From IMG/VR virus record IMGVR_UViG_3300035698_026266: DNA of 64,000 nucleotides; one strand, 5' to 3'. Below are positions 7,434-60,674 of this stretch, piece by piece. This DNA comes from an uncultured virus (IMG/VR IMGVR_UViG_3300035698_026266). Lineage: Duplodnaviria > Heunggongvirae > Uroviricota > Caudoviricetes. The position numbers and the translations under genes were made by a program. Position 1 is the first letter of the stretch; each line of letters starts with the position of its first letter. The notes under the pieces were generated by a model, which saw only the letters and a program-made list of their open reading frames with translations, did no database searches and was not told the origin of the DNA.

Positions 7434-7506
7434 CAGAATGTGGTCTAATTCGGCGATGATACTCGACATGGGTCGGGTAATACAGGTTCAAATCCTGTCA
7501 TTCTGA
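7434..7506 (+). tRNA. tRNA-Pro-like with a 6-nt anticodon loop (degenerate/atypical)
   Basis: Acceptor CAGAATG/CATTCTG; CTCGA-CATGGG-TCGGG; ACAGGTTCAAATCCTGT. Confidence 0.65.
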
Positions 7507-13345: not shown

Positions 13346-13732
13346 ATGGAGTTCAAAAAATGGTTAAATGATATTATTCCCGGCAAACCTCTTAAAAACA
13401 GATCGGGAGAAGCAATAACTTTATATCATGGAACTGATAGGGATTTCACAAAATTTGATTTAAAAAAGTCAACAATGGGATTGATTTGGTTTACCACCGA
13501 TAAAGAACAGATATTAAAAAAAGAAGTAGGTGCGCAGGGAAGTGGATTTATAATATCAGCAAATATCGATTTGGAAAATCCAGCAAACTGGAAAGAATAT
13601 GATCGTCTTTTAATAGTTCAGTTAAAGCAAGAAGGATACGACGGAGCAGTTTTAGAAGACAAAAATGGACATTTTGATGCTTTTGTCTTTGATCCTAGAC
13701 AAATACATGTAATTAATAAACAGCAAGTTTGA
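13346..13732 (+). CDS. ADP-ribosyltransferase-like (ART-PolyVal type) small protein
   Basis: LYHGT..F.KFD...GLIWFTTD...GYDG...FVFDPRQI; MEFKKWL N-terminus. Confidence 0.6.
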   Translation: MEFKKWLNDIIPGKPLKNRSGEAITLYHGTDRDFTKFDLKKSTMGLIWFTTDKEQILKKEVGAQGSGFIISANIDLENPANWKEYDRLLIVQLKQEGYDGAVLEDKNGHFDAFVFDPRQIHVINKQQV

Positions 13733-17970: not shown

Positions 17971-18005
17971 GCAATTAGAACAACTGTCATTTAAGGAGTT
18001 TGGTA

Positions 18006-18449
18006 ATGTTAGCAGAAAAATTAAGAACAGAAATAAGAAAAGCCACATTGGGTAAAGAAGATTTTAGGAAAATGACTCTTAAAACGGCATTAGGTGAAGT
18101 AGAAAGACAAAACTTTAAAGATGTTTCATCTGACAAAAACAGTCAAAAAGCATTGAAAAAGTTGATCGAAGGCAACAGAGAATTAATCGAACAGACGGAT
18201 TCTAGCTTGGTTGTTAGTAGATTAAATCAAGAGATAAAAATACTAAGCGAATTCATTCCTAGTGACTTTGACAAGGATGAAATGCGTATGATGTTGCTTG
18301 AAGTTAGTGAAACAATAAAAGAAGCAGACAATAATGGACGAGCTATGGGCGTTGCCATGAAGTTCATGAAAGAAAAATCCGAAGAAGTTGGCAAAACAGT
18401 CAATGGTAATTTGGTAGCAGATTTAGTAAAAGAATTCAGGAAAGAATAA
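18006..18449 (+). CDS. GatB/YqeY domain protein
   Basis: Helical pattern EIKILSEFIP...MGVAMKFMK...VNGNLVADLVK. Confidence 0.75.
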   Translation: MLAEKLRTEIRKATLGKEDFRKMTLKTALGEVERQNFKDVSSDKNSQKALKKLIEGNRELIEQTDSSLVVSRLNQEIKILSEFIPSDFDKDEMRMMLLEVSETIKEADNNGRAMGVAMKFMKEKSEEVGKTVNGNLVADLVKEFRKE

Positions 18450-21942: not shown

Positions 21943-24699
21943 ATGTCATATAAAGACACCATCTTGTTGCCTAAATCTAATTTTCCTATTAAGCCTAAAA
22001 AAATCTTTGAAGAAGAACAGGCCCGCTTAGCCAAATGGGGAAATCCATATCAAACAATGAGGCATAATAGAAATGGGAACAAAGAATTTGTTCTCCATGA
22101 TGGTCCCCCATATGCAAATGGCGATATTCATATGGGGCATGTTTTAAATAAAGTCATTAAGGATTTTATTGTAAAATATAAATATTTTGAGGGATTTAAG
22201 CCTCATTTTGTACCCGGATGGGATTGTCACGGTCTTCCAATTGAACGTGCTGTGATCTCATCAGGAATAAAAACTGATAATATTCCAGAATTTAGAAATC
22301 AATGTAGAAAATACGCTAATCTACAAGTTGAAAAACAAAAAGAACAGTTTAAAACATTAGGAATAATATCAGATTGGGATAATTGTTACAAAACAATGGA
22401 CTATGCTTTCGAAGCAATGGTTTATGACTCTTTGAGAAGACTCCATGCAAAGGGATTAATTCAAGAAAGACACAAACCTGTTTATTGGTCTTGGTCAGAG
22501 AAAACAGCATTAGCAGAAGCAGAAGTAGAACATATATATAAATCGGATTATTCTATCTATGTGTTGTTCGAAGCGATAGTTAATGAAAAGTCTAAAAAAT
22601 TATTTGAGAATTTGGGACCAATTAGTTTTTTAATTTGGACAACAACCCCTTGGACTTTGCCTGCCAACAGTGGTCTTGCAGTGCATCCCAACGAACGCTA
22701 TTTTGTCGTTGAAGCCGAACGATTCAATACAATAAAACAGGTTTTAGTATCTGAAAATAGATATGAAGATTTGTGTCATCAAGAGGTCATAGGTTCTGAA
22801 ATAATTGCTGCTTTTAGGGGATTTGAACTAATAAACTTAGATGTGTCCAATCCATTAAAAAATAAAAACATGTCTAATTCTAGAGTTGTTGCAGACGAAT
22901 CTGTCGATGTTTTATCTGGTACTGGCATTGTGCATTTGGCTCCCGGTCATGGCGTTAGTGATTATGAAATAGGATTAAAAAACAATTTACAAGTCCTTCA
23001 ACCAGTTGATGAAAGTGGCTATTACACAGATCATATTGAAGATTTAGTAAATTCTGATTTGTATCAATTAAAAGCAAAACATGTGTTTGAAGCGAATCAC
23101 TATTTAGTATCGCATTTAATGGAAAAAGGGTTCATTTTGAAAACCGAATCCATTAAACACAAATATCCTTATTGTGCAAGATCAGGCAAACCAATAATTT
23201 TCAGATCGACAAATCAATGGTTTGTTGATCTCTCTAAACTGAAAGAAACTAAAAAAGAATTAGATAACATTCAGTTCTTTCCGATACAAAGTAAAAACAG
23301 ACTTGAATCTTTTTTGAATAGAAAAGAATGGTGTATATCTAGGCAGCGTTCTTGGGGTGTGCCTATTGTTTGCAAAAAAGAAAATGACAAAATAGTATTT
23401 GAAGATTTGAAAGATCAAATTATTCAAAAAGGATTTGATTCTTTTTGGGAAAACGGCTCGCCGGATGTCCTTGATGTTTGGTTCGATAGTGGATTGACTT
23501 GGCAGACTTTAAATGGAGTACAAGCAGATTTATATGTTGAAGGGACGGATCAACATAGAGGATGGTTTCAGAGTTCTTTGCTTTTAGGTATGGCCCTAAA
23601 TGGCAAGTCTCCTTACAAGTCAGTATTGACACATGGATTTGTAGTAGATAAAAAAGGAGAAAAGTTAGCAAAATCTAAAGGCAATGGGGTGTCTCCTTCT
23701 AAAATAATGAAAAAATATGGCAATGAAGTTATAAGAAGTTGGATTGCTACTACTGATTTTTCTAAAGATGTTAAGTTTAGTGAAACCAACATAGAAAGAG
23801 CATCAGAAGTCTATTATAAAATAAGAAACACAATAAGATTTTTAATATCCAACATTGACGATTCTTTATTAATGAATCATTTTGAAACTGTCGATTTCAC
23901 TCAAAAAAGAAAATCTTTTTTGGTTAATGCTGATCCAATAAATTTTTGGATAGCACGTCAAATGGCTCTGGTCAGTTTAGAAATCAAAGAACATTTTGCA
24001 AATTATGAATTTTTCAAAGGGCTGTCAAAATTAAGTGAATTTATAAATACGAAATTGAGCAATGTATATTTTTCTTATATTAAAGATAACTTATATTGTG
24101 ATGACAAATATGATTTCTATAGAGGGAATATACAATTTTTATTGACAGAGATGTTGAATAGCATTTTTGTTCTAATAGCTCCAATTTTCACTCATACTGT
24201 TGATGAGGCTTTAGAAAGCTGTGTCCCTTGGTTGAAAAAATATTTAGGGGATGATGTTTTTGGGCTTAAAACAAATGGTTTATTTTGTGATGCAGATCAT
24301 GAAAACGGATATCTACTTTCAGATTGGTCGGGAAATAACGAAAAAGATGATATGGCAAATAAGTGTTTAAGATTAATTGAAACATTTAATGAATCGTTTA
24401 GAGAATTAAAAGAGTTGAAGCTTGTTAGAACACCATTAGAGTTAGAAGTTGTTTACCCTAGTGAACATTCTTGCCCTATTGATTGGCTGAAAAGCAAAGA
24501 AAATTTATTGGGAGTTGCCAAAATGACTACCAGTTTTAATAGCGAAATTGATCCATTAACGACTTTCGTATTTGATGGTCAAGAATATCATGTTTTTAGA
24601 ACCGGAAAATATAAATGTGAACGTTGTTGGAAATATAATGCTCAAGAAGAAAAAGGGTTGTGTTTGAGATGTGATAAATGTTTATCGTTTGCTAAATAG
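21943..24699 (+). CDS. ileS: Isoleucyl-tRNA synthetase (type 1)
   Basis: LHDGPPYANG..HMGH, GWDCHGLPIE, WTTTPWTLPAN, WCISRQRSWGVP, EGTDQHRGWFQS, KLAKS, C-terminal CERC...CLRC. Confidence 0.97.
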   Translation: MSYKDTILLPKSNFPIKPKKIFEEEQARLAKWGNPYQTMRHNRNGNKEFVLHDGPPYANGDIHMGHVLNKVIKDFIVKYKYFEGFKPHFVPGWDCHGLPIERAVISSGIKTDNIPEFRNQCRKYANLQVEKQKEQFKTLGIISDWDNCYKTMDYAFEAMVYDSLRRLHAKGLIQERHKPVYWSWSEKTALAEAEVEHIYKSDYSIYVLFEAIVNEKSKKLFENLGPISFLIWTTTPWTLPANSGLAVHPNERYFVVEAERFNTIKQVLVSENRYEDLCHQEVIGSEIIAAFRGFELINLDVSNPLKNKNMSNSRVVADESVDVLSGTGIVHLAPGHGVSDYEIGLKNNLQVLQPVDESGYYTDHIEDLVNSDLYQLKAKHVFEANHYLVSHLMEKGFILKTESIKHKYPYCARSGKPIIFRSTNQWFVDLSKLKETKKELDNIQFFPIQSKNRLESFLNRKEWCISRQRSWGVPIVCKKENDKIVFEDLKDQIIQKGFDSFWENGSPDVLDVWFDSGLTWQTLNGVQADLYVEGTDQHRGWFQSSLLLGMALNGKSPYKSVLTHGFVVDKKGEKLAKSKGNGVSPSKIMKKYGNEVIRSWIATTDFSKDVKFSETNIERASEVYYKIRNTIRFLISNIDDSLLMNHFETVDFTQKRKSFLVNADPINFWIARQMALVSLEIKEHFANYEFFKGLSKLSEFINTKLSNVYFSYIKDNLYCDDKYDFYRGNIQFLLTEMLNSIFVLIAPIFTHTVDEALESCVPWLKKYLGDDVFGLKTNGLFCDADHENGYLLSDWSGNNEKDDMANKCLRLIETFNESFRELKELKLVRTPLELEVVYPSEHSCPIDWLKSKENLLGVAKMTTSFNSEIDPLTTFVFDGQEYHVFRTGKYKCERCWKYNAQEEKGLCLRCDKCLSFAK

Positions 24700-24832
24700 A
24701 GATAGTGAAAAAAATTTATTTAATAGTTTTATTATTTGTATCACTTGTTATAATAAGCTGTACGTTTATTGATAAGGGTGATGCTTTACAAGATCGCCCT
24801 TTATTGCCGATTCAAGATGGGAAGGAAACAAA

Positions 24833-25628
24833 ATGAAAAAGAAAAAACATAATTGTAAAAACAAAGTAGAAACATCCGACCTCCAAGCTAAACTTGCTGA
24901 AATGGAAAGGCAAGTGGAGTGTCTTTGACCCATCTAAAGCTAAAGAGCTAGTGATTGAAATACAATTTGGCGAAGGCGGCAATGACAGCAAGTCTTTCGT
25001 AGCTGAATTGGCAACTACTTATATTAAATATGCACAAAAATTAAACATAGAATGCAAAACTCTTGATGCCTCTGAAGGGCATGTTTTGTTGAAGTTTTCA
25101 AGTGCTAATGTTTGGCAGGCTTTTAAAAACGAGTCTGGAAAGCATGTAGTTCAACGAGTCCCCCCGACAGAAAACAAAGGTAGAAGGCACACTTCTATTA
25201 TTTCTGTGGCGGTACTTCCAATTCTGGATTTACCATATGCATTATTGAAACGTGATGAAATAGAAATAAAAACACAGGGCGGGCATGGTGCAGGCGGTCA
25301 GCATCAAAACACTACTGATTCTGCTGTGAGAATGACTCATATTTCTACAGGAATTTCTGTTTTTATTAATGGCAGAAAGCAAAATCAAAACAAAAAAGAA
25401 GCACTTAAAATTTTAACTGCTCGTGTAAACGACTTTTATTTAACTAAAATAAAATCTGCTCATAGTGAGTTAAGATATAAACAAATGGGCGGCGGTAGCA
25501 GGTCTGGTAAAATCAGAACATATGATTTTGTTAATTCAAGAGTTACAGATCACAATTTGAAGCTTAAAACTAGGCAACTAGAAACATTTATGAAGGGGAG
25601 TTTTGACGTTTTATTTGATAAAAAGTAA
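24833..25628 (+). CDS. Class I peptide chain release factor, N-terminally shortened, expressed via a predicted +1 frameshift at CTT-TGA-C (24923-24929)
   Basis: ORF0 24833-24928 ends GTG GAG TGT CTT TGA C; +1 frame has GEGG, ESGKHVVQRVPPTENKGRRHTS, GAGGQHQN, KIRTYDF. Confidence 0.85.
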
Positions 25629-48756: not shown

Positions 48757-49402
48757 ATCTCCTCACTTGCCAGAAAGTCCGGGGGTAAATAATGACGACA
48801 CCATTATTAAAGATTTGTGTCATTTGAAAAAACAAACAATAGTAGTTACCGAAAAACTAGATGGGGAAAATACTACAATCACTTCCGAAAAATGGCATGC
48901 AAGATAGTTGAACACTCCTTACCACTCATCGAGAAGGGAAGTGGTGAATTTATTTGCGAGATTGAAACATGAAATTCCTAATGGATGGCGAATTTGTGGA
49001 GAGAACTGTTATTCGCTTCATTCTATTTTTTACGAAATGAATCCACCTTGGTTTTTCGTTTTTTCTGTATGGGATGAAAAAAACATATGTTTATCATGGG
49101 ACGACACAATTTCTTTTTGTGAAACCTTAAATCTTTTTACGGTTCCTGTGTTATATGTTGGTCCTTGGGATCAAAAAAAAATAAATTCTTGTTGGCGTGG
49201 TCATTCCGAATTTGGAAAAGAACAAGAAGGTTTTGTCATAAGAAATGCAAACGAATTTAGTTTTGAACAATTTGGTTTTAATTTAGCAAAATATGTGAGA
49301 AAAAACCATGTGAGAACCAATGATTTTTGGATGAAACAATCTTTAATTGTTAATCAAAAAGGGAACGAAGAAAAAGCTGTTGCACGATTGACTATTTGCT
49401 GA
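48731..49402 (+). pseudogene. RNA ligase (Rnl2-like nucleotidyltransferase) with in-frame TAG at 48905-48907
   Basis: KYPKSPHLP.SPG, TEKLDGENT (motif I), HAR*L, ICGEN, EGFVIR, AKYVR. Confidence 0.8.
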
Positions 49403-49436: not shown

Positions 49437-49520
49437 TAGGAGAAGGCAAAAGCGGCTAAAATGCAGACGCCTTTTGTCCGATATATATCGTATACTAATT
49501 ATACTAGAAAGCAACTAAAA

Positions 49521-51128
49521 ATGAGTAAATCCACATATCCAAATGGGCATATGCCAGAAGATTTTGACTGTTTTGGTCCCCCGGCCATTAGAGATGGCGA
49601 ATTTGAGGAAACAATGATAGCTGATTTGGGATGTTTTAAACAACCTACTCCTGACAATCCACAAGGAGTTGATTCAAATAAATATTATCATGGTTCTGTC
49701 GTCCAAAGCAAGAAAAATGGACAATGGTATGTTTATCTTGAATGGGGTCGTACATCTGCTAAAAATCCGCAATTTCAGTTTGTGGAATGCTCAAATAAAA
49801 ATGAAGCAAAAGCAAAATATTGCAAGCAACTTCATTCTAAAAACGATAATAGGGGTATGTGGGACCACCATCCAGTTTTAGGAAAAATGTTGAAACCCAA
49901 ACCAAATAAGGATTGTTATTTGGTACGTCCACAAGCGGCCCGAAGTACAGGACTTCCAAGCGCTAAAACAATATCCATTACAGAAAAAACTATTGTTTCC
50001 AAGAACAACAAAAAGACGTTGAAGAAAAATCTGGATGTGCAGACTACTTCCCTTTTGAAAGATTTGAATATTGGCACATTGAATTATACAAGAACATCAA
50101 TGGCCGACAGTGCGTTGCCGACTTTAGACGCCATCAAAGAAGGTAGAGACATTCTAGACGCTGCCATGAATAGAGTGGCTAATTTTGGCAACAATATAGA
50201 TGATCAAATTTCAGACTCGGAATTAATAAGTTTAACAAGTCTGATTTATAGCAGGATTCCTAAAAAGAAAAACAGAGGGGTCGACGCCGCAGAATGGATT
50301 TTGTCACAAAACAATATTTTTGCTTGGAAGCAGGACATAGATGCTTTTGAATCCGCTGTGAATTCACAAGAATATGAAATTGAAGACGATCCGATGCAGG
50401 GCATGGACGTTAAGATGTTCTGGCTTGCTCCTAATTCTAAAGAAGGTGAATTTGTTCATAGTTGGGTTAAACAATCCACATTAAACAAACATTCTTATCT
50501 TGGCAAAATGAATGTGATAAATGTATGGACAGTTACTAGAGAATCCGAAAACAAAGCTTTTCTGGTTGAACAGGAAAACATATTAAAGGAAACGAAAAAC
50601 AAAGACATTTCTGAACGTCCGTTAAATCAACCTAAAAACAGATTGGATTTAGACACGTCAGATGTTTTGAAATATCATAAAAGCAACACATCTTTGTTGT
50701 TTCATGGTACTAGAAGTTGTAACGTTTCTGGTTTGTTGCGAGAAGGGTTTAGATTCCCAAAAGAATTAAGAAACGTTGCCATTAATGGGGCTATGTTTAG
50801 TGGCGGTGCAGGTGGTGTTTATGCAGCAGACGACATAAAAAAGAGTGTTGGTTATACTTCTTATGAAAAAGGGATATATTCACAAGGCAAAGGTGGCATA
50901 AAAGGGAGAAAGGCTTTTATGTTTGTGTGTGATTTTGTTTTAGGCAATCCTCATGTTGCTCCTGAAGCTTATCCATACACAAAATATCCAACTAATACAC
51001 ATAGTATTTTTGGCAAGGCAGGGTATTCTGGATTTGGATACGGTGATAGAAAACTTCAAAATAATGAATGGATTATTTTGAAAAAGTCTCAATATCAATT
51101 TAAATATTTGATCGAATTTAACTTTTAA
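49521..51128 (+). CDS. WGR-domain poly(ADP-ribose) polymerase-like protein
   Basis: SNKYY...EWGRT (WGR), helical domain, LLFHGTR, GAMF.GG..GVYAAD..KS.GY, NNEWI (H-Y-E triad). Confidence 0.85.
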   Translation: MSKSTYPNGHMPEDFDCFGPPAIRDGEFEETMIADLGCFKQPTPDNPQGVDSNKYYHGSVVQSKKNGQWYVYLEWGRTSAKNPQFQFVECSNKNEAKAKYCKQLHSKNDNRGMWDHHPVLGKMLKPKPNKDCYLVRPQAARSTGLPSAKTISITEKTIVSKNNKKTLKKNLDVQTTSLLKDLNIGTLNYTRTSMADSALPTLDAIKEGRDILDAAMNRVANFGNNIDDQISDSELISLTSLIYSRIPKKKNRGVDAAEWILSQNNIFAWKQDIDAFESAVNSQEYEIEDDPMQGMDVKMFWLAPNSKEGEFVHSWVKQSTLNKHSYLGKMNVINVWTVTRESENKAFLVEQENILKETKNKDISERPLNQPKNRLDLDTSDVLKYHKSNTSLLFHGTRSCNVSGLLREGFRFPKELRNVAINGAMFSGGAGGVYAADDIKKSVGYTSYEKGIYSQGKGGIKGRKAFMFVCDFVLGNPHVAPEAYPYTKYPTNTHSIFGKAGYSGFGYGDRKLQNNEWIILKKSQYQFKYLIEFNF

Positions 51129-51862: not shown

Positions 51863-52873
51863 ATGCAAACAAATTGGTCTAAAATACATGGCATGTTTCT
51901 TGGAATTCAAATAGGGGATGCTTTAGGCATGCCAGTAGAATCGAGAACTGCCAAAGAAATAAAAGAAAAATATGGCAGAATTGAAAGAATGATAAGTCCA
52001 AAAGATCATAAGTATTTAAGCGATAATAAAGCAGGGACTTATACGGACGACACTCAACTGACATTAGCTGTGGCAAAAGGTCTTATTGCTGATCCTTTAA
52101 ATATGGATTCGCAGGTCAAATTTCATTTAGACGCTTTCAACAAATCAACAAGTGGTTGGGGTAGAAGCACTAGAGAAGCCGTTAGCAGGCTTGCCAACGG
52201 ATGCACTTGGCAAACATCAGGTCAACTCAACGGTGAGTTTACAGGCAAAGGAAATGGGGTTTCTATGAAAGTATCCCCGGTTGCAGCTTTGTTTGATTTG
52301 TATGATGAAAATAAAGTTGTGTCCTTTATAAAGAAATTGTCTTTAATGACACATCGTACTAATATGGCAGTCATATCAGGCATGACGCAATCTTTTGCTG
52401 TTCGTTATTGTTTAATGACAAATGAAAAAGAATTCAATTCAAATACTTTTATAGAATGGGTTCTATCGGGTGCTAACATTGGCAATAATGAATTTCCTGA
52501 TGTTTGTGAAGAAAAAGATAATTTATATCTAAGATTAAAATCACTAAAAAAACACAATGAGTATACCACCAAAAAAATAATTGAAGATTATAATGGCGGC
52601 ACATGTTATTGTTACAATTCTTTGCCTTTTACATATTTGTTTTTTCTGAAAGATTACGATTCAATTGACGCAATGTACAACGTCATAGCAGCAGGGGGTG
52701 ATACAGATACCAATGCGTCTATGGTTGGCGGATTGTTGGGAGCGTTGCATGGCTATACTGTTTTCCCCGAACATTTAATTGCTACTCTTGATGAAAAAGA
52801 AAGAAAAGAAGTTCTTGAAGTAAGCAAGTTGTTTTACAAGAGTTTTTCAAAAACGACAATCGGTTTTTCATAA
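51863..52873 (+). CDS. ADP-ribosylglycohydrolase
   Basis: IGDALGMPVE, YTDDTQL, GNG..M, GGDTDTNASMVGGLLGA. Confidence 0.93.
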   Translation: MQTNWSKIHGMFLGIQIGDALGMPVESRTAKEIKEKYGRIERMISPKDHKYLSDNKAGTYTDDTQLTLAVAKGLIADPLNMDSQVKFHLDAFNKSTSGWGRSTREAVSRLANGCTWQTSGQLNGEFTGKGNGVSMKVSPVAALFDLYDENKVVSFIKKLSLMTHRTNMAVISGMTQSFAVRYCLMTNEKEFNSNTFIEWVLSGANIGNNEFPDVCEEKDNLYLRLKSLKKHNEYTTKKIIEDYNGGTCYCYNSLPFTYLFFLKDYDSIDAMYNVIAAGGDTDTNASMVGGLLGALHGYTVFPEHLIATLDEKERKEVLEVSKLFYKSFSKTTIGFS

Positions 52874-58551: not shown

Positions 58552-59595
58552 ATGAAAAAAATAGTTTATCAAGCTGTCATTTGTGGAATAGAAGTTAAAG
58601 GTCTTTTGGTTTTGAAAAGCAATTATGACGGCTATGATCCACATGCCAATGAAAGATTTCTTAAAGGAACTCTAATTGCTTACGTTCATAAAGATCGTTT
58701 AAGTGAAGAACAAATTGATAAAATACTAAACGGCCAAAACAAAAGTTTAACTGTGCAGTGGCCGTTGAAAGAACGTAATGAAAACCCTGTTGAAAATAAA
58801 AAAGATGTTCAAAAAGGGCAAAACGACAACTTTGAACCTAGCGAGTATCAAAAAACAATATATAATATTGTAGAAAAACAAGAAAATCATATTTTGATTA
58901 AAGCTTTAGCAGGTTCTGGTAAAACCTCTACGCTTATATGGCTTGTGCAACAGATGCATGCTAAAGGGATGACTAAAGGTAAAAAAATAGTCTATCTTGC
59001 TTTTAATAAATCCATTCAAAAAGAATTAAGTGAGAAATTAATAGGTACTGGTGTGCCTGCGCTCACAACGCATTCTTTTGGGTTTAAAGCAATAAAAAAA
59101 CATTATAATTCAGATATAAAACCTACTAATGGCAGGGTAGCAAGCGATACGTTTTTAAAACTTGTGTGTGAATTAAAAGGGTTAAAACAAAACATAAAGG
59201 GATTGAGAGCGGCAAAAGAAACAGAAGAATATAGACTGCGATCTGCTGTTTTAGAATTAGTAGGTTATATTAAGAATTGGGCTATTCTTCCTAGTTTTGA
59301 CGACTATTGGGTTTTTGACGACAAACAAAAATCGATAATAGAAGGATTTATTTCTGATTACGAAATAGAGATAGATGAAGGTTTTACTTCTGTTGACTTG
59401 GTGGATTTTGCCTGTGATGTGGTGGCAAGAAATTTGCCATTATCAGATTCCAATATTGTGGAAATAGACTACGACGACATGCTGTATTTGCCGTTGGCAA
59501 TGAAATTGCCTTTGCCAAAATATGATCTCGTACTTACTGATGAAAGTCAAGATTTTAACGCTTGCCAAATATCCATATTACAAAAAATCATTTAA
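58552..59595 (+). CDS. UvrD/Rep SF1 helicase, N-terminal half (motifs Q to II)
   Basis: PSEYQ, ALAGSGKT, LAFNK, TTHSFG, IDYDDML, DESQD, then stop. Confidence 0.88.
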   Translation: MKKIVYQAVICGIEVKGLLVLKSNYDGYDPHANERFLKGTLIAYVHKDRLSEEQIDKILNGQNKSLTVQWPLKERNENPVENKKDVQKGQNDNFEPSEYQKTIYNIVEKQENHILIKALAGSGKTSTLIWLVQQMHAKGMTKGKKIVYLAFNKSIQKELSEKLIGTGVPALTTHSFGFKAIKKHYNSDIKPTNGRVASDTFLKLVCELKGLKQNIKGLRAAKETEEYRLRSAVLELVGYIKNWAILPSFDDYWVFDDKQKSIIEGFISDYEIEIDEGFTSVDLVDFACDVVARNLPLSDSNIVEIDYDDMLYLPLAMKLPLPKYDLVLTDESQDFNACQISILQKII

Positions 59596-59660: not shown

Positions 59661-60674
59661 ATGAGCGGCAGAATAATAGTAGTTGGCGATCCACGTCAGG
59701 CTTTATACCGTTTTCGTGGTGCTGACGCAAAAGCTTTTGAACGTATAGAAGAAATGTTTTCTAAAGATAAAAGAGGTATCGTAACTTGTGAATTACCAAT
59801 AAATTATCGTTGTTCTAAAAAGATAATTAACCATTCAAAACTTTGGGTAAAAGAGTTGCAGGGTTTCAAAAAAGAAGAAGGAATAGTTGATGAAATTTAT
59901 TACAATGAATCTTTACAAAGAGCAAATAATGACAATGTTGATATTGGTCTAAAAGATGGCTGTTTAGGAGAAAGTCGAGTATTAGAAAACGCTACGTTTG
60001 CTTTTTTGTGCAGAATAAACGTGTCTTTAGTTATAACAGCATACAGATTAATGGGACTAAAAAAGAAAGTTTGCATTATAGGGCAAAGCCAATTTGGAAC
60101 CCCATTAGTTAATTTAATTGAAAAGTTATGTTATCCTAAAAATAAAGTTCTTCATACAAACAGGATTAGCGATAGAATAGATGCGTCTGGAAGCATTGTT
60201 GAAGAAGGGCTTTTAACAAGATTAAGGTCTGATTTTAGGATTCAAAGCGAAAAACTAAAATCAGATGGTTTTGAAAGGAAATTGGAGTCTTTGCAGCAAA
60301 ACGTTGAATGTATAGAAGTCATTGCGTTAAACGCAAAAGATGATAAAGTAACTACAGTTTTAGAAGACATTGAGGAATTGTTTACAGAAGAACCTGAACC
60401 CGGCGTCATAACTTTAAGCACGATTCACAAATCTAAAGGATTGGAATGGGATGTCGTTTTTATTCTTAGGCCAGATTTAATGCCACATCCCAAAGCAAAA
60501 AGTTGTGAGGAACTAGAACAAGAAAAAAATGCTCAATATGTAGCAGCGACTAGAGCTAAAAACAGATTGTATTATGTTAAGAATTGGCCGGGTGAAAACT
60601 TTTCGTATTCTAGACCTGTTAGCGAGTACGAAAAACCCGAAACAATCAGCAAAGAGAGCGACATTAAAGATTAG
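59661..60674 (+). CDS. UvrD/Rep SF1 helicase, C-terminal half (motifs III to VI)
   Basis: VGDPRQALYRFRGA, NYRC, LCRIN, STIHKSKGLEWD, YVAATRAK. Confidence 0.88.
   Translation: MSGRIIVVGDPRQALYRFRGADAKAFERIEEMFSKDKRGIVTCELPINYRCSKKIINHSKLWVKELQGFKKEEGIVDEIYYNESLQRANNDNVDIGLKDGCLGESRVLENATFAFLCRINVSLVITAYRLMGLKKKVCIIGQSQFGTPLVNLIEKLCYPKNKVLHTNRISDRIDASGSIVEEGLLTRLRSDFRIQSEKLKSDGFERKLESLQQNVECIEVIALNAKDDKVTTVLEDIEELFTEEPEPGVITLSTIHKSKGLEWDVVFILRPDLMPHPKAKSCEELEQEKNAQYVAATRAKNRLYYVKNWPGENFSYSRPVSEYEKPETISKESDIKD

What the first reader, a model, noticed from the sequence alone, without database searches (positions are those of the whole stretch)
24818..25628. Release factor with RF1-type PxT motif expressed through an RF2-type UGA +1 frameshift
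Seen: a GGGAAGGA SD and ATG at 24833 open 31 codons ending GTG GAG TGT CTT TGA C. This places an internal SD-like GGAG 3 nt before CTT-TGA-C. The +1 frame encodes the release factor core (fusion about 264 aa), whereas the ORF-track TTG start at 24894 lacks an SD. Established: this is the prfB autoregulatory frameshift cassette, in which low RF2 activity at UGA promotes shifting; RF2 has SPF and RF1 has PxT. Seen: the motif here is QRVPPTENKGRRHTS (RF1-like), GGQ is intact and most of domain 1 is missing. Inference: either an open-loop sensor that makes a UAG/UAA-type or rescue factor when host RF2 is impaired, or a PxT factor that has gained UGA reading.
Basis: partly seen in the sequence, partly recalled or inferred. 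Interest (0 to 1): 0.85.

Follow-up and report, generated by a model that had tools for sequence, protein, structure and literature searches.

The report
Frameshift-gated phage release factor RF1
A large phage carries its own shortened RF1-type translation termination factor, which can only be made if the ribosome slips one base at a stop codon, a trick previously known for bacterial RF2 but not for RF1-type genes.

Summary
ATG 24833 opens 31 codons that end GTG GAG TGT CTT TGA C. The +1 frame (24927-25625) encodes a GGQ- and PPT-bearing release factor core. The fused product is 264 aa.

The protein is RF1-like: NF001859 scores 232 bits, against 152 for RF2 and 60 for PrfH. It lacks domain 1.

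The frame break is not an assembly error. Contigs from four public runs cross the site without an indel.

Of 44 unique related loci from huge-phage contigs, 30 keep a CTT-stop +1 site at this place, and 8 of those have two sites in tandem. The stop is TGA at 23 sites, TAG at 11 and TAA at 4. Of 26 frameshift-type loci parsed, 17 have no possible start codon in the release-factor frame. A high-GC sister clade has AGGAG-NNN-CTT-TGA-C inside the gene in 6 of 6 members.

I read this as a programmed prfB-type +1 frameshift. Its stop is not matched to the factor's own RF1-type specificity, so here it is cross-gated by host RF2.

I found no description of this in eight literature searches. This scan noted similar phage genes before on other DNA (e1-4016155, e1-5839266).

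Verdict: a new variant of a known kind, of high interest.

The parts
24819..24826 (+). Shine-Dalgarno-like GGGAAGGA for the leader ORF, 6 nt before the ATG
   Evidence: Read directly. Leaders of relatives also have strong SDs such as AAGGAG or AGGAGG.
24833..24928 (+). ORF0: a 31-codon leader (MKKKK...QVECL) plus its stop TGA at 24926-28
   Evidence: It adds only about 5 bits to the RF1 profile score, 232.4 against 227.6.
24916..24919 (+). Internal SD-like GGAG, 3 nt upstream of the slippery CTT
   Evidence: Read directly. E. coli prfB has the same spacing: GGGGG TAT CTT TGA C. An SD-like 4-mer lies in the 9 nt before CTT at 22 of 38 sites in relatives.
24923..24929 (+). +1 frameshift site CTT TGA C (slippery Leu codon, stop, weak +4 C)
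   Evidence: Conserved in 30 of 44 unique related loci. Four contigs from four runs cross it with 0 gaps.
24927..25628 (+). +1-frame body of the release factor (233 codons plus TAA): domains 2, 3 and 4 of an RF1-type factor
   Evidence: Pfam PCRF and RF-1. NCBIfam scores RF1 at 227.6 bits and RF2 at 146.2. The AF2 model has pLDDT 92.5. The best Foldseek matches are ribosome-bound RF1, TMq 0.81-0.83. BLASTP against E. coli RF1 aligns from D32 to D104 at 39% identity.
25161..25169 (+). PPT tripeptide (RF1-type PxT codon-reading motif) within QRVPPTENKGRRHTS
   Evidence: aligned to E. coli RF1 QRVPATESQGRIHTS; E. coli RF2 has SPF at this place.
25293..25301 (+). GGQ catalytic motif
   Evidence: invariant in alignment A1.
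21943..24699 (+). Upstream neighbour: phage-encoded isoleucyl-tRNA synthetase (context: a translation gene cluster)
   Evidence: TIGR00392 ileS scores 712.8 bits, above its cut-off of 621.4. Pfam tRNA-synt_1.
24705..24836 (+). 43-codon ORF (GTG start) whose TGA overlaps the leader's ATG (ATGA). Its product looks like a signal peptide followed by Cys.
   Evidence: No family hit. Whether it is real or coupled to the leader was not tested.

Best explanation
The gene at 24833-25628 belongs to a large phage: it sits among an IleRS gene, 13 tRNA genes and many phage-type genes. It encodes a release factor of the RF1 type that lacks domain 1.

Translation starts at a good SD/ATG and runs through a 31-codon leader that ends CUU UGA C. 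UGA-C is a slow stop. With peptidyl-tRNA-Leu on CUU in the P site, and the internal GGAG 3 nt upstream pairing with 16S rRNA, a fraction of ribosomes slips one base forward (CUU to UUU). These ribosomes read GAC and make the 264-aa factor. The rest terminate and release the 31-aa leader.

Termination at UGA competes with slipping, so the yield rises as RF2 activity at UGA falls. The product carries RF1-type reading residues (PPT, plus the flanking Q and HTS) and should read UAA and UAG, not UGA. The loop is therefore open: host RF2, not the product, sets the gate.

Shown here:
- the sequence anatomy;
- the RF1-type identity of the protein;
- conservation of the slip site across relatives;
- the lack of alternative starts in relatives;
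- the absence of an indel in independent contigs.

Inferred, not shown:
- that slipping occurs, and how efficiently;
- the codon specificity of the product;
- the purpose. I propose that it tops up UAA/UAG termination capacity, kept low and tied to the state of host termination.
For: Anatomy.

RF1 type:
- NF001859 scores 232.4 bits, TIGR00019 225.1, prfB 152.2 and PrfH 60.4.
- Identity is 39% to E. coli RF1 and 31% to RF2.
- The AF2 model (pLDDT 92.5) best matches ribosome-bound RF1.
- In the tree, RF2 separates from bacterial RF1 plus the phage clade at SH-aLRT 100. The phage clade of 47 rows has support 98.

The frameshift is real:
- 30 of 44 unique related loci have a CTT-stop with the release factor at +1, placed 13-43 nt before GEGG (70 nt in L046, one of the tandem loci).
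- All 26 frameshift-type loci parsed lack an ATG in the release-factor frame, and 17 of 26 lack ATG, GTG and TTG altogether. The five loci without a gate that were parsed there (L020, L036, L037, L056, L058) each have an ATG 21-30 nt before GEGG.
- RF1 homology begins exactly at D32, the first +1 codon.
- In the high-GC sister clade, 6 of 6 unique members have the GEGG motif in frame 0 and the rest of the factor in +1, joined at (A/C)AGGA(G/C) NNN CTT TGA C.
- Contigs of 4 runs bridge 24923-29 with no gap.

Weak stop context: +4 is C at 27 of 38 sites. No TGA-C occurs at 22 TGA gene ends in the window.

The phage uses the standard code. Coverage by ORFs of 100 aa or more is 86% under code 11, with stops TAA 48, TGA 22 and TAG 19. 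TGA is therefore a genuine stop for it.
Against: - No RNA or protein data exist for this gene, and no frameshift product has been observed.
- The window itself does have possible starts in the +1 frame: TTG at 24894 and GTG at 24951.
- At 16 of 38 family sites no SD-like 4-mer precedes CTT.
- The stop at the gate varies (TGA 23, TAG 11, TAA 4). 'Sensing RF2' may therefore not be the selected function, and a fixed low-yield attenuator would look the same in sequence.
- The specificity of a PPT factor without domain 1 is inferred from motifs only.
- Some relatives lack any gate (L020, L037).
Confidence: 0.8

Rival explanations
1. Same frameshift, but with no sensing role. The CTT-stop site is a fixed attenuator that holds a potentially harmful extra release factor at a low, constant level. 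The stop type is then irrelevant.
For: The stop at the gate is interchangeable among close relatives: L039 has TAA and L042 has TAG, while L001 has TAA+TGA and L021 has TAG+TGA. Tandem sites would multiply the attenuation. Over-expression of release factors lowers fitness in B. subtilis (PMC12421855, passages read).
Against: A weak SD or a rare start codon would attenuate more cheaply. A stop is always kept after CTT, at 38 of 38 sites, and it mostly has the weakest +4 base (C at 27 of 38). That pattern points to competition with termination. Any stop-dependent slip responds to release factor activity by its mechanism.
Confidence: 0.25
2. Closed loop. The PPT factor has broadened specificity and also reads UGA, so the cassette is autoregulatory exactly as in prfB.
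For: TGA is the commonest gate, at 23 of 38 sites. Some relatives have non-canonical tripeptides: PDN, PKN, PPN, PHL.
Against: The window protein has the RF1-type PPT plus the flanking Q and HTS, as E. coli RF1 does, not SPF. PPT-type relatives use TGA, TAG and TAA gates alike, so the gate does not track the motif.
Confidence: 0.1
3. No frameshift. The leader is a separate small ORF, and the release factor starts on its own at GTG 24951 or TTG 24894, perhaps by termination-reinitiation coupling.
For: Both codons exist in the +1 frame. Some TGA-recoded relatives start just before the GEGG strand, for example MEKIILEI and MKKIQIEI.
Against: No SD precedes the TTG. Of 26 frameshift-type relatives, 17 have no ATG, GTG or TTG in that frame. 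Residues between the slip site and the GTG align to RF1, D32-L39 to RF1 104-111. The CTT-stop hexamer is conserved in the right frame. In the high-GC clade, essential motifs lie on both sides of the shift.
Confidence: 0.06
4. Assembly or sequencing error, or a decaying pseudogene.
For: A single extra base would give the same picture in one sequence.
Against: Contigs from four runs cross the site with 0 gaps, though one of them may be the source sample. The same break recurs in 30 of 44 unique loci of 29-60% protein identity and 33-65% GC. The core is intact, with invariant GGQ.
Confidence: 0.02

Closest known systems
Bacterial prfB (RF2) autoregulatory +1 programmed frameshift, CUU UGA C with an internal SD
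   Same: A short ORF0 ends CTT TGA C. An SD-like element lies 3 nt before CTT. The body of a class-I release factor is in the +1 frame. The E. coli site read here is GGGGG TAT CTT TGA C.
   Different: - The product is RF1-type, not RF2, so as judged from sequence the loop is not autoregulatory.
- The site lies just before domain 2, not at codon 26 of domain 1.
- The codon before CTT is TGT, not TAT.
- Relatives use TAG and TAA as well as TGA, and sometimes two sites in tandem. A survey of more than 12,000 bacterial genomes found no TAG in the prfB motif and no programmed frameshift in prfA (PMC12421855, passages read).
Bacterial RF1 (prfA; TIGR00019 / NF001859)
   Same: PxT-type tripeptide, GGQ, and the fold of domains 2-4. 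Identity to E. coli RF1 is 39%. The protein falls on the RF1 side of the RF1/RF2 split.
   Different: Domain 1 (about 100 residues) is absent. Scores are far below the equivalog cut-offs: 232 against 400 and 225 against 423. The gene forms a separate phage clade and needs recoding.
Mimivirus/Megavirus class-I release factor gene with two recoding events (Jeudy et al. 2012, PMC3521657; abstract read)
   Same: A virus-encoded termination factor whose synthesis needs recoding at internal stop codons, with bacterial-style feedback logic.
   Different: That factor is of the eukaryotic/archaeal eRF1/aRF1 type and uses one frameshift plus one readthrough. This one is a bacterial RF1-type factor in a phage, with one CUU-UGA shift (two in some relatives).
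RF1 genes of TGA-recoded phages ('code change module', Borges et al. preprint 10.1101/2021.08.26.457843; passages read)
   Same: A phage-encoded RF1 next to translation genes. Some relatives found here are TGA-recoded, with in-frame TGA inside the gene (L002, L003, L036, L056, L058).
   Different: The window phage uses the standard code. The neighbouring synthetase is IleRS, not TrpRS. No suppressor tRNA is among its 13 tRNAs. The passages read make no mention of a frameshift.
PrfH (release factor H, the RtcB-associated rescue factor)
   Same: A short class-I release factor homolog without domain 1.
   Different: The TIGR03072 score is 60 bits against a cut-off of 167. The RF1-type codon-reading loop is retained. 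No RtcB is found among the 79 window ORFs scanned.

Membership tests
prfB-type +1 programmed frameshift cassette | Short ORF0 with its own SD and ATG, ending in an in-frame stop | tested here: met
   ATG 24833, 31 codons, TGA 24926-28, SD GGGAAGGA at 24819-26.
prfB-type +1 programmed frameshift cassette | Slippery CUU directly before the stop, with weak stop context (UGA C) | tested here: met
   CTT TGA C at 24923-29. In relatives, all 38 detected sites have CTT, though the script searched only for CTT. +4 is C at 27 of 38.
prfB-type +1 programmed frameshift cassette | Internal SD-like sequence 3 nt upstream of CUU | tested here: met
   GGAG at 24916-19, spacer TGT. E. coli has the same spacing. 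Present at 22 of 38 family sites.
prfB-type +1 programmed frameshift cassette | The +1 frame encodes the functional body, and no independent start is available | tested here: met
   RF1 homology starts at the first +1 codon. Of 26 relatives, 17 have no start codon in that frame. The window itself has a TTG and a GTG, so this is met at family level.
prfB-type +1 programmed frameshift cassette | Autoregulation: the product recognises the stop codon at the shift site | tested here: not met
   Judged by sequence only. The product has PPT (RF1-type, UAA/UAG) and the gate is UGA. A biochemical test was not possible.
prfB-type +1 programmed frameshift cassette | Frameshift product observed | not testable with these tools
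   No RNA or protein data. No RNA run holds the stretch.
RF1 (prfA equivalog, TIGR00019 / NF001859) | Score above the curated cut-off, full length with domain 1 | tested here: not met
   232.4 bits against 400 and 225.1 against 423.25. The alignment covers model positions 74-336 of 347.
RF1 (prfA equivalog, TIGR00019 / NF001859) | PxT tripeptide and GGQ | tested here: met
   PPT at residues 110-112 and GGQ at 154-156 of the fused product.
RF2 (prfB, TIGR00020) | SPF tripeptide, best profile match | tested here: not met
   PPT stands where E. coli RF2 has SPF. RF2 scores 152 bits against 232 for RF1. RF2 forms a separate clade at SH-aLRT 100.
PrfH (TIGR03072) | Profile score above cut-off, RtcB neighbour | tested here: not met
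   60.4 bits against 166.65. No RtcB among the 79 window ORFs. In the tree the single PrfH row sits on a branch of length 6, so its placement is unreliable.
Phage 'code change module' RF1 | TGA-recoded phage, with an adjacent suppressor tRNA and TrpRS | tested here: not met
   The standard code fits the window. The 13 tRNAs include no UCA anticodon. The neighbour is IleRS.

The most novel reading that the evidence does not exclude
Large phages carry a family of domain-1-less RF1 paralogs whose synthesis is gated by stop codons at the 5' end. The gate can be a single or tandem +1 slip at CUU-UGA, CUU-UAG or CUU-UAA, or an early in-frame UGA. It works as a sensor of the host's termination capacity.

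On this reading, UGA gates (as in this window) report RF2 activity. UAG gates give the first natural RF1-type autoregulatory frameshift. Tandem gates with unlike stops (TAG+TGA, TAA+TGA) act as an AND gate on both host factors.
Probability: 0.4. Interest if true: 0.88.

Novelty: new variant of a known kind. Interest (0 to 1): 0.8.

Why it matters
Stop-codon-dependent +1 frameshifting has been the textbook signature of RF2 alone.

A 2016 review states that the counterpart with UAG and RF1 genes is unknown (PMC5009743, passage read). A 2025 survey of more than 12,000 bacterial genomes found no programmed frameshift in prfA and never a TAG in the motif (PMC12421855).

Here an RF1-type gene uses the cassette with UGA, and its relatives use UAG or UAA, sometimes twice in a row. 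If the gate responds to host release factors, phages have wired their own termination factor to the state of host translation. That would be directly testable with reporters. It would also offer compact natural parts, single and tandem, for sensing RF1 and RF2 activity.

The family also shows that RF1-like factors without domain 1 are widespread, which bears on what domain 1 is needed for.

Tried and rejected
I did not repeat it; the protein search served instead.
- no whole genome is held for this window, so a second release factor gene or a suppressor tRNA elsewhere in the phage could not be sought.
I replaced it.
- no RNA holder is listed, so expression could not be examined.
- the one metagenome scan returned almost only bacterial full-length RF1 (35-42% identity). 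I used these as the outgroup, not as family members.
- the one genome scan with E. coli RF2 returned only Gammaproteobacteria. I used 9 of the 80 loci, picked by hand, as RF2 references, and all 80 for the cassette count.
- Is the leader a remnant of the last helix of domain 1? Profiles and BLASTP against RF2 align residues 11-31. But the leader adds only about 5 bits, BLASTP against RF1 starts at D32, and the leaders of relatives are short and unrelated in sequence. I rejected this as unproven.
- a look-up of the protein among earlier scan notes found nothing.
- Parsing failures: L052 and L054 were misread by the script (16-23 in-frame stops) and count among the 44 unique loci as 'no site'. 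L018 was mis-extracted for the tree (branch length 9), as were two bacterial rows. L040 has in-frame stops in its core and matched only to residue 150.
- One search was a faulty first version of the site-finding script. It over-recursed and was superseded.
- Indirect support only: of the 30 predicted proteins (among the 120 top homologs) that extend 14 aa or more before GEGG, 28 show F-D, F-E or F-S where CTT-TGA or CTT-TAG would be read in the overlapping frame. I could not see their DNA.

Full report
**1. The observation**

- GGGAAGGA lies at 24819-26.
- ATG is at 24833, followed by 31 codons (MKKKKHNCKNKVETSDLQAKLAEMERQVECL).
- The ORF ends GTG GAG TGT CTT TGA C, with CTT at 24923-25, TGA at 24926-28 and C at 24929.
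- GGAG at 24916-19 lies 3 nt before CTT.
- The +1 frame is open from GAC 24927 to TAA 25626-28.

Read with one four-base step at CTTT, the product is 264 aa. In the +1 frame the only upstream starts are TTG 24894, with no SD, and GTG 24951.

**2. What the protein is**

Pfam finds PCRF (residues 11-125) and RF-1 (138-240). NCBIfam ranks RF1 first: NF001859 232.4 bits and TIGR00019 225.1. RF2 scores 152.2, PrfH 60.4 and ArfB 20.5. All are below the equivalog cut-offs, because about 100 N-terminal residues (domain 1) are absent.

BLASTP gives 39% identity to E. coli RF1. That alignment starts exactly at D32, the first +1 codon, which matches RF1 D104. QRVPPTENKGRRHTS lies opposite QRVPATESQGRIHTS. 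Identity to E. coli RF2 is 31%, and RF2 has SPF at that place.

An AlphaFold model of the 233-aa core, built with a 41-row alignment, has pLDDT 92.5. Its best Foldseek matches are ribosome-bound RF1 chains (TMq 0.81-0.83, 37-39% identity). RF2 chains follow at 29-30% identity.

I built a tree of 99 rows:
- 44 phage-family rows;
- 3 high-GC phage rows;
- 1 PrfH row;
- the first 40 bacterial RF1 ORFs of more than 330 aa from the metagenome loci;
- 2 named RF1 rows;
- 9 hand-picked RF2 rows.

The tree splits RF2 from RF1 plus phage at SH-aLRT 100. It unites 47 rows (43 phage, 3 high-GC, 1 PrfH) at 98. The PrfH row and three mis-extracted rows have very long branches, so I do not rely on their placement.

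The leader adds only about 5 bits to the RF1 score. I do not claim it is a remnant of domain 1.

**3. The setting**

The window is phage-like and AT-rich (27-36% GC). It holds 13 tRNA genes, of which 12 are confirmed by Rfam. It also holds HNH endonucleases, a lysozyme, ClpX-like, sigma-70-like, PARP and ADP-ribosylglycohydrolase genes. The gene directly upstream (21943-24699) is an isoleucyl-tRNA synthetase.

The standard code fits. ORFs of 100 aa or more cover 86% of the window, and their stops are TAA 48, TGA 22 and TAG 19. None of the 22 TGA ends is followed by C. No whole genome is held.

Public runs that hold the stretch are labelled salt lake metagenomes.

**4. Is the frame break real?**

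Logan contigs from four runs (at most four samples; one may be the source) cross 24923-29 with no gap and no base difference there.

**5. Relatives**

A protein search found a large family of 165-295-aa RF1-like proteins on contigs of up to 669 kb. PPT is the tripeptide in 83 of the 120 top hits.

I collected DNA from a GenBank huge-phage record and from IMG/VR. After removing duplicates by a 330-nt key, 44 unique loci remained, the window included. Some are close kin, and 2 were mis-parsed. They span 33-65% GC and 29-60% protein identity.

Results:
- 30 of the 44 have CTT followed by a stop in the frame that puts the release factor at +1. The site lies 13-43 nt before the GEGG motif, or 70 nt in L046.
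- 22 loci have one site and 8 have two in tandem.
- Of the 38 sites, 23 are TGA, 11 TAG and 4 TAA.
- The +4 base is C at 27 sites.
- The preceding codon is TGT at 24 sites.
- An SD-like 4-mer lies within the 9 nt before CTT at 22 sites.
- Of the 40 CTT-stop hexamers in the 130 nt before GEGG, 31 are in the +1 class, 8 are the upstream members of tandem pairs, and 1 is in the release-factor frame.

Of the 26 frameshift-type loci parsed, none has an ATG in the release-factor frame, and 17 have no ATG, GTG or TTG at all. The five ungated loci parsed there each have an ATG 21-30 nt before GEGG.

In all 8 tandem loci the first leader has an ATG behind a strong SD. The middle frame has no ATG in 7 of 8 (L021 has one, without an SD) and no start codon of any kind in L001.

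**6. Other forms in the family**

- Four loci have an early in-frame TGA instead of a shift: L005, L016, L024 and L061.
- L032 has GTT TGA A with the factor at +1.
- Five loci carry TGA codons inside the core and so belong to TGA-recoded phages: L002, L003, L036, L056 and L058.
- L020 and L037 are plain.

A high-GC sister clade has the cassette at a different place. In 6 of 6 unique members, frame 0 reads M(R/L)(V/I)E(I/V)RPGEGG...(E/D)(C/L)L and ends (A/C)AGGA(G/C) NNN CTT TGA C. The +1 frame carries the rest of the factor, including GGQ. There, essential motifs lie on both sides of the shift, which leaves no reading other than a frameshift.

**7. How it most likely works**

The anatomy matches the prfB mechanism. 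The E. coli site, read here from the genome record, is GGGGG TAT CTT TGA C, and 78 of 80 gammaproteobacterial prfB loci have the same cassette.

What is known of prfB, from the cited reviews and my own knowledge, is as follows. A slow UGA-C stop, peptidyl-tRNA-Leu able to re-pair from CUU to UUU, and an SD-like element 3 nt upstream together drive a +1 slip that competes with RF2.

The same competition must apply here. The product, however, has the reading residues of RF1. By inference from sequence, host RF2 sets the gate and the product does not.

The gate's stop varies among PPT-type relatives. It differs even between near-identical proteins: L039 has TAA and L042 has TAG, with branch lengths 0 and 0.024. 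This argues against the idea that this factor has learned to read UGA. It also leaves open whether sensing RF2 as such is the selected function. The alternative is a stop-dependent throttle, made steeper where tandem, on an extra termination factor.

**8. Comparison with what is known**

- Phage-encoded RF1 and RF2 are known. They are listed for huge phages (PMC7162821, passages, where the word 'frameshift' does not occur) and for recoded phages (preprint 10.1101/2021.08.26.457843, passages; PMC10746230, passages).
- Recoding in a viral class-I release factor is known for Mimivirus (PMC3521657, abstract).
- For RF1-type genes, the 2016 review says the counterpart is unknown (PMC5009743, passage). 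The 2025 survey found no programmed frameshift in prfA, no TAG in the prfB motif, and no motif in Actinomycetota (PMC12421855, passages).

Eight full-text searches found no description of a frameshift-gated phage RF1. The supplements of the preprint could not be opened.

This scan has noted like cases on other DNA: a frameshifted short RF1-type gene in a huge phage's tRNA array (e1-4016155), a UGA-gated phage release factor (e1-5839266) and a viral aRF1 with CTT-TGA-C (e1-6059954).

**9. Verdict**

The feature is a real, conserved, prfB-like +1 frameshift gate on a phage RF1-type factor without domain 1. It is a new variant of a known kind. The frameshift itself and the factor's specificity remain to be shown at the bench.

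Noticed in passing
L001, L017, L021, L023, L028, L034, L035, L046 (about 70-110 nt before the GEGG motif): Eight relatives need two successive +1 slips at CTT-stop sites. The stop pairs are TAA+TGA, TAA+TAG, TAG+TGA, TGA+TGA and TAG+TAG. The first leader always has an SD and ATG, while the middle frame lacks an ATG in 7 of 8.
   Followed up: partly
L006/L229, L228/L230, L231, L007/L232, L234, L010/L235: A high-GC (59-64% GC) phage clade of about 210-aa release-factor-like proteins with an RIPKG loop. All 6 unique members have (A/C)AGGA(G/C) NNN CTT TGA C about 10 codons after the GEGG motif, a different position from the window's site.
   Followed up: partly
L005, L016, L024, L061 (first 4-12 codons of the release factor gene): These relatives have an early in-frame TGA in place of the frameshift. 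This is the readthrough-type gate once hypothesised for release factor genes. L032 has GTT TGA A with the factor at +1.
   Followed up: no
window 7434-7506 (+): A tRNA-like gene (Rfam tRNA, 45.4 bits) for which ARAGORN reports a two-base anticodon 'tg'. It seems to have an unusual anticodon loop, and it is not a UCA suppressor.
   Followed up: no
window 24705-24836 (+): A 43-codon ORF (GTG start) encodes a signal-peptide-like stretch ending ...LVIISC. Its TGA overlaps the release factor leader's ATG (ATGA), which suggests translational coupling.
   Followed up: no
window 58552-59595 and 59661-60674 (+): The N-terminal and C-terminal domains of a UvrD-type helicase lie in two adjacent ORFs separated by 65 nt. 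This may be a split gene or another recoding or intervening-element site.
   Followed up: no
window 13346-13732, 49461-51128, 51863-52873 (+): The same window holds an ADP-ribosyltransferase (ART-PolyVal), a PARP-catalytic/WGR protein and an ADP-ribosylglycohydrolase, that is, an ADP-ribosylation writer and eraser set.
   Followed up: no
window 18000-18449 and 48908-49402 (+): A YqeY/GatB-like protein lies next to tRNA-Arg, and an RNA-ligase domain ORF matches only profile positions 42-171 of 171. These are further translation or RNA-repair-related genes near the tRNA array.
   Followed up: no
L040 (IMGVR_UViG_3300049617_000144): This relative has an intact CTT TGA C gate, but its core has in-frame stops and matches only to residue 150. 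It may be interrupted or decaying.
   Followed up: no
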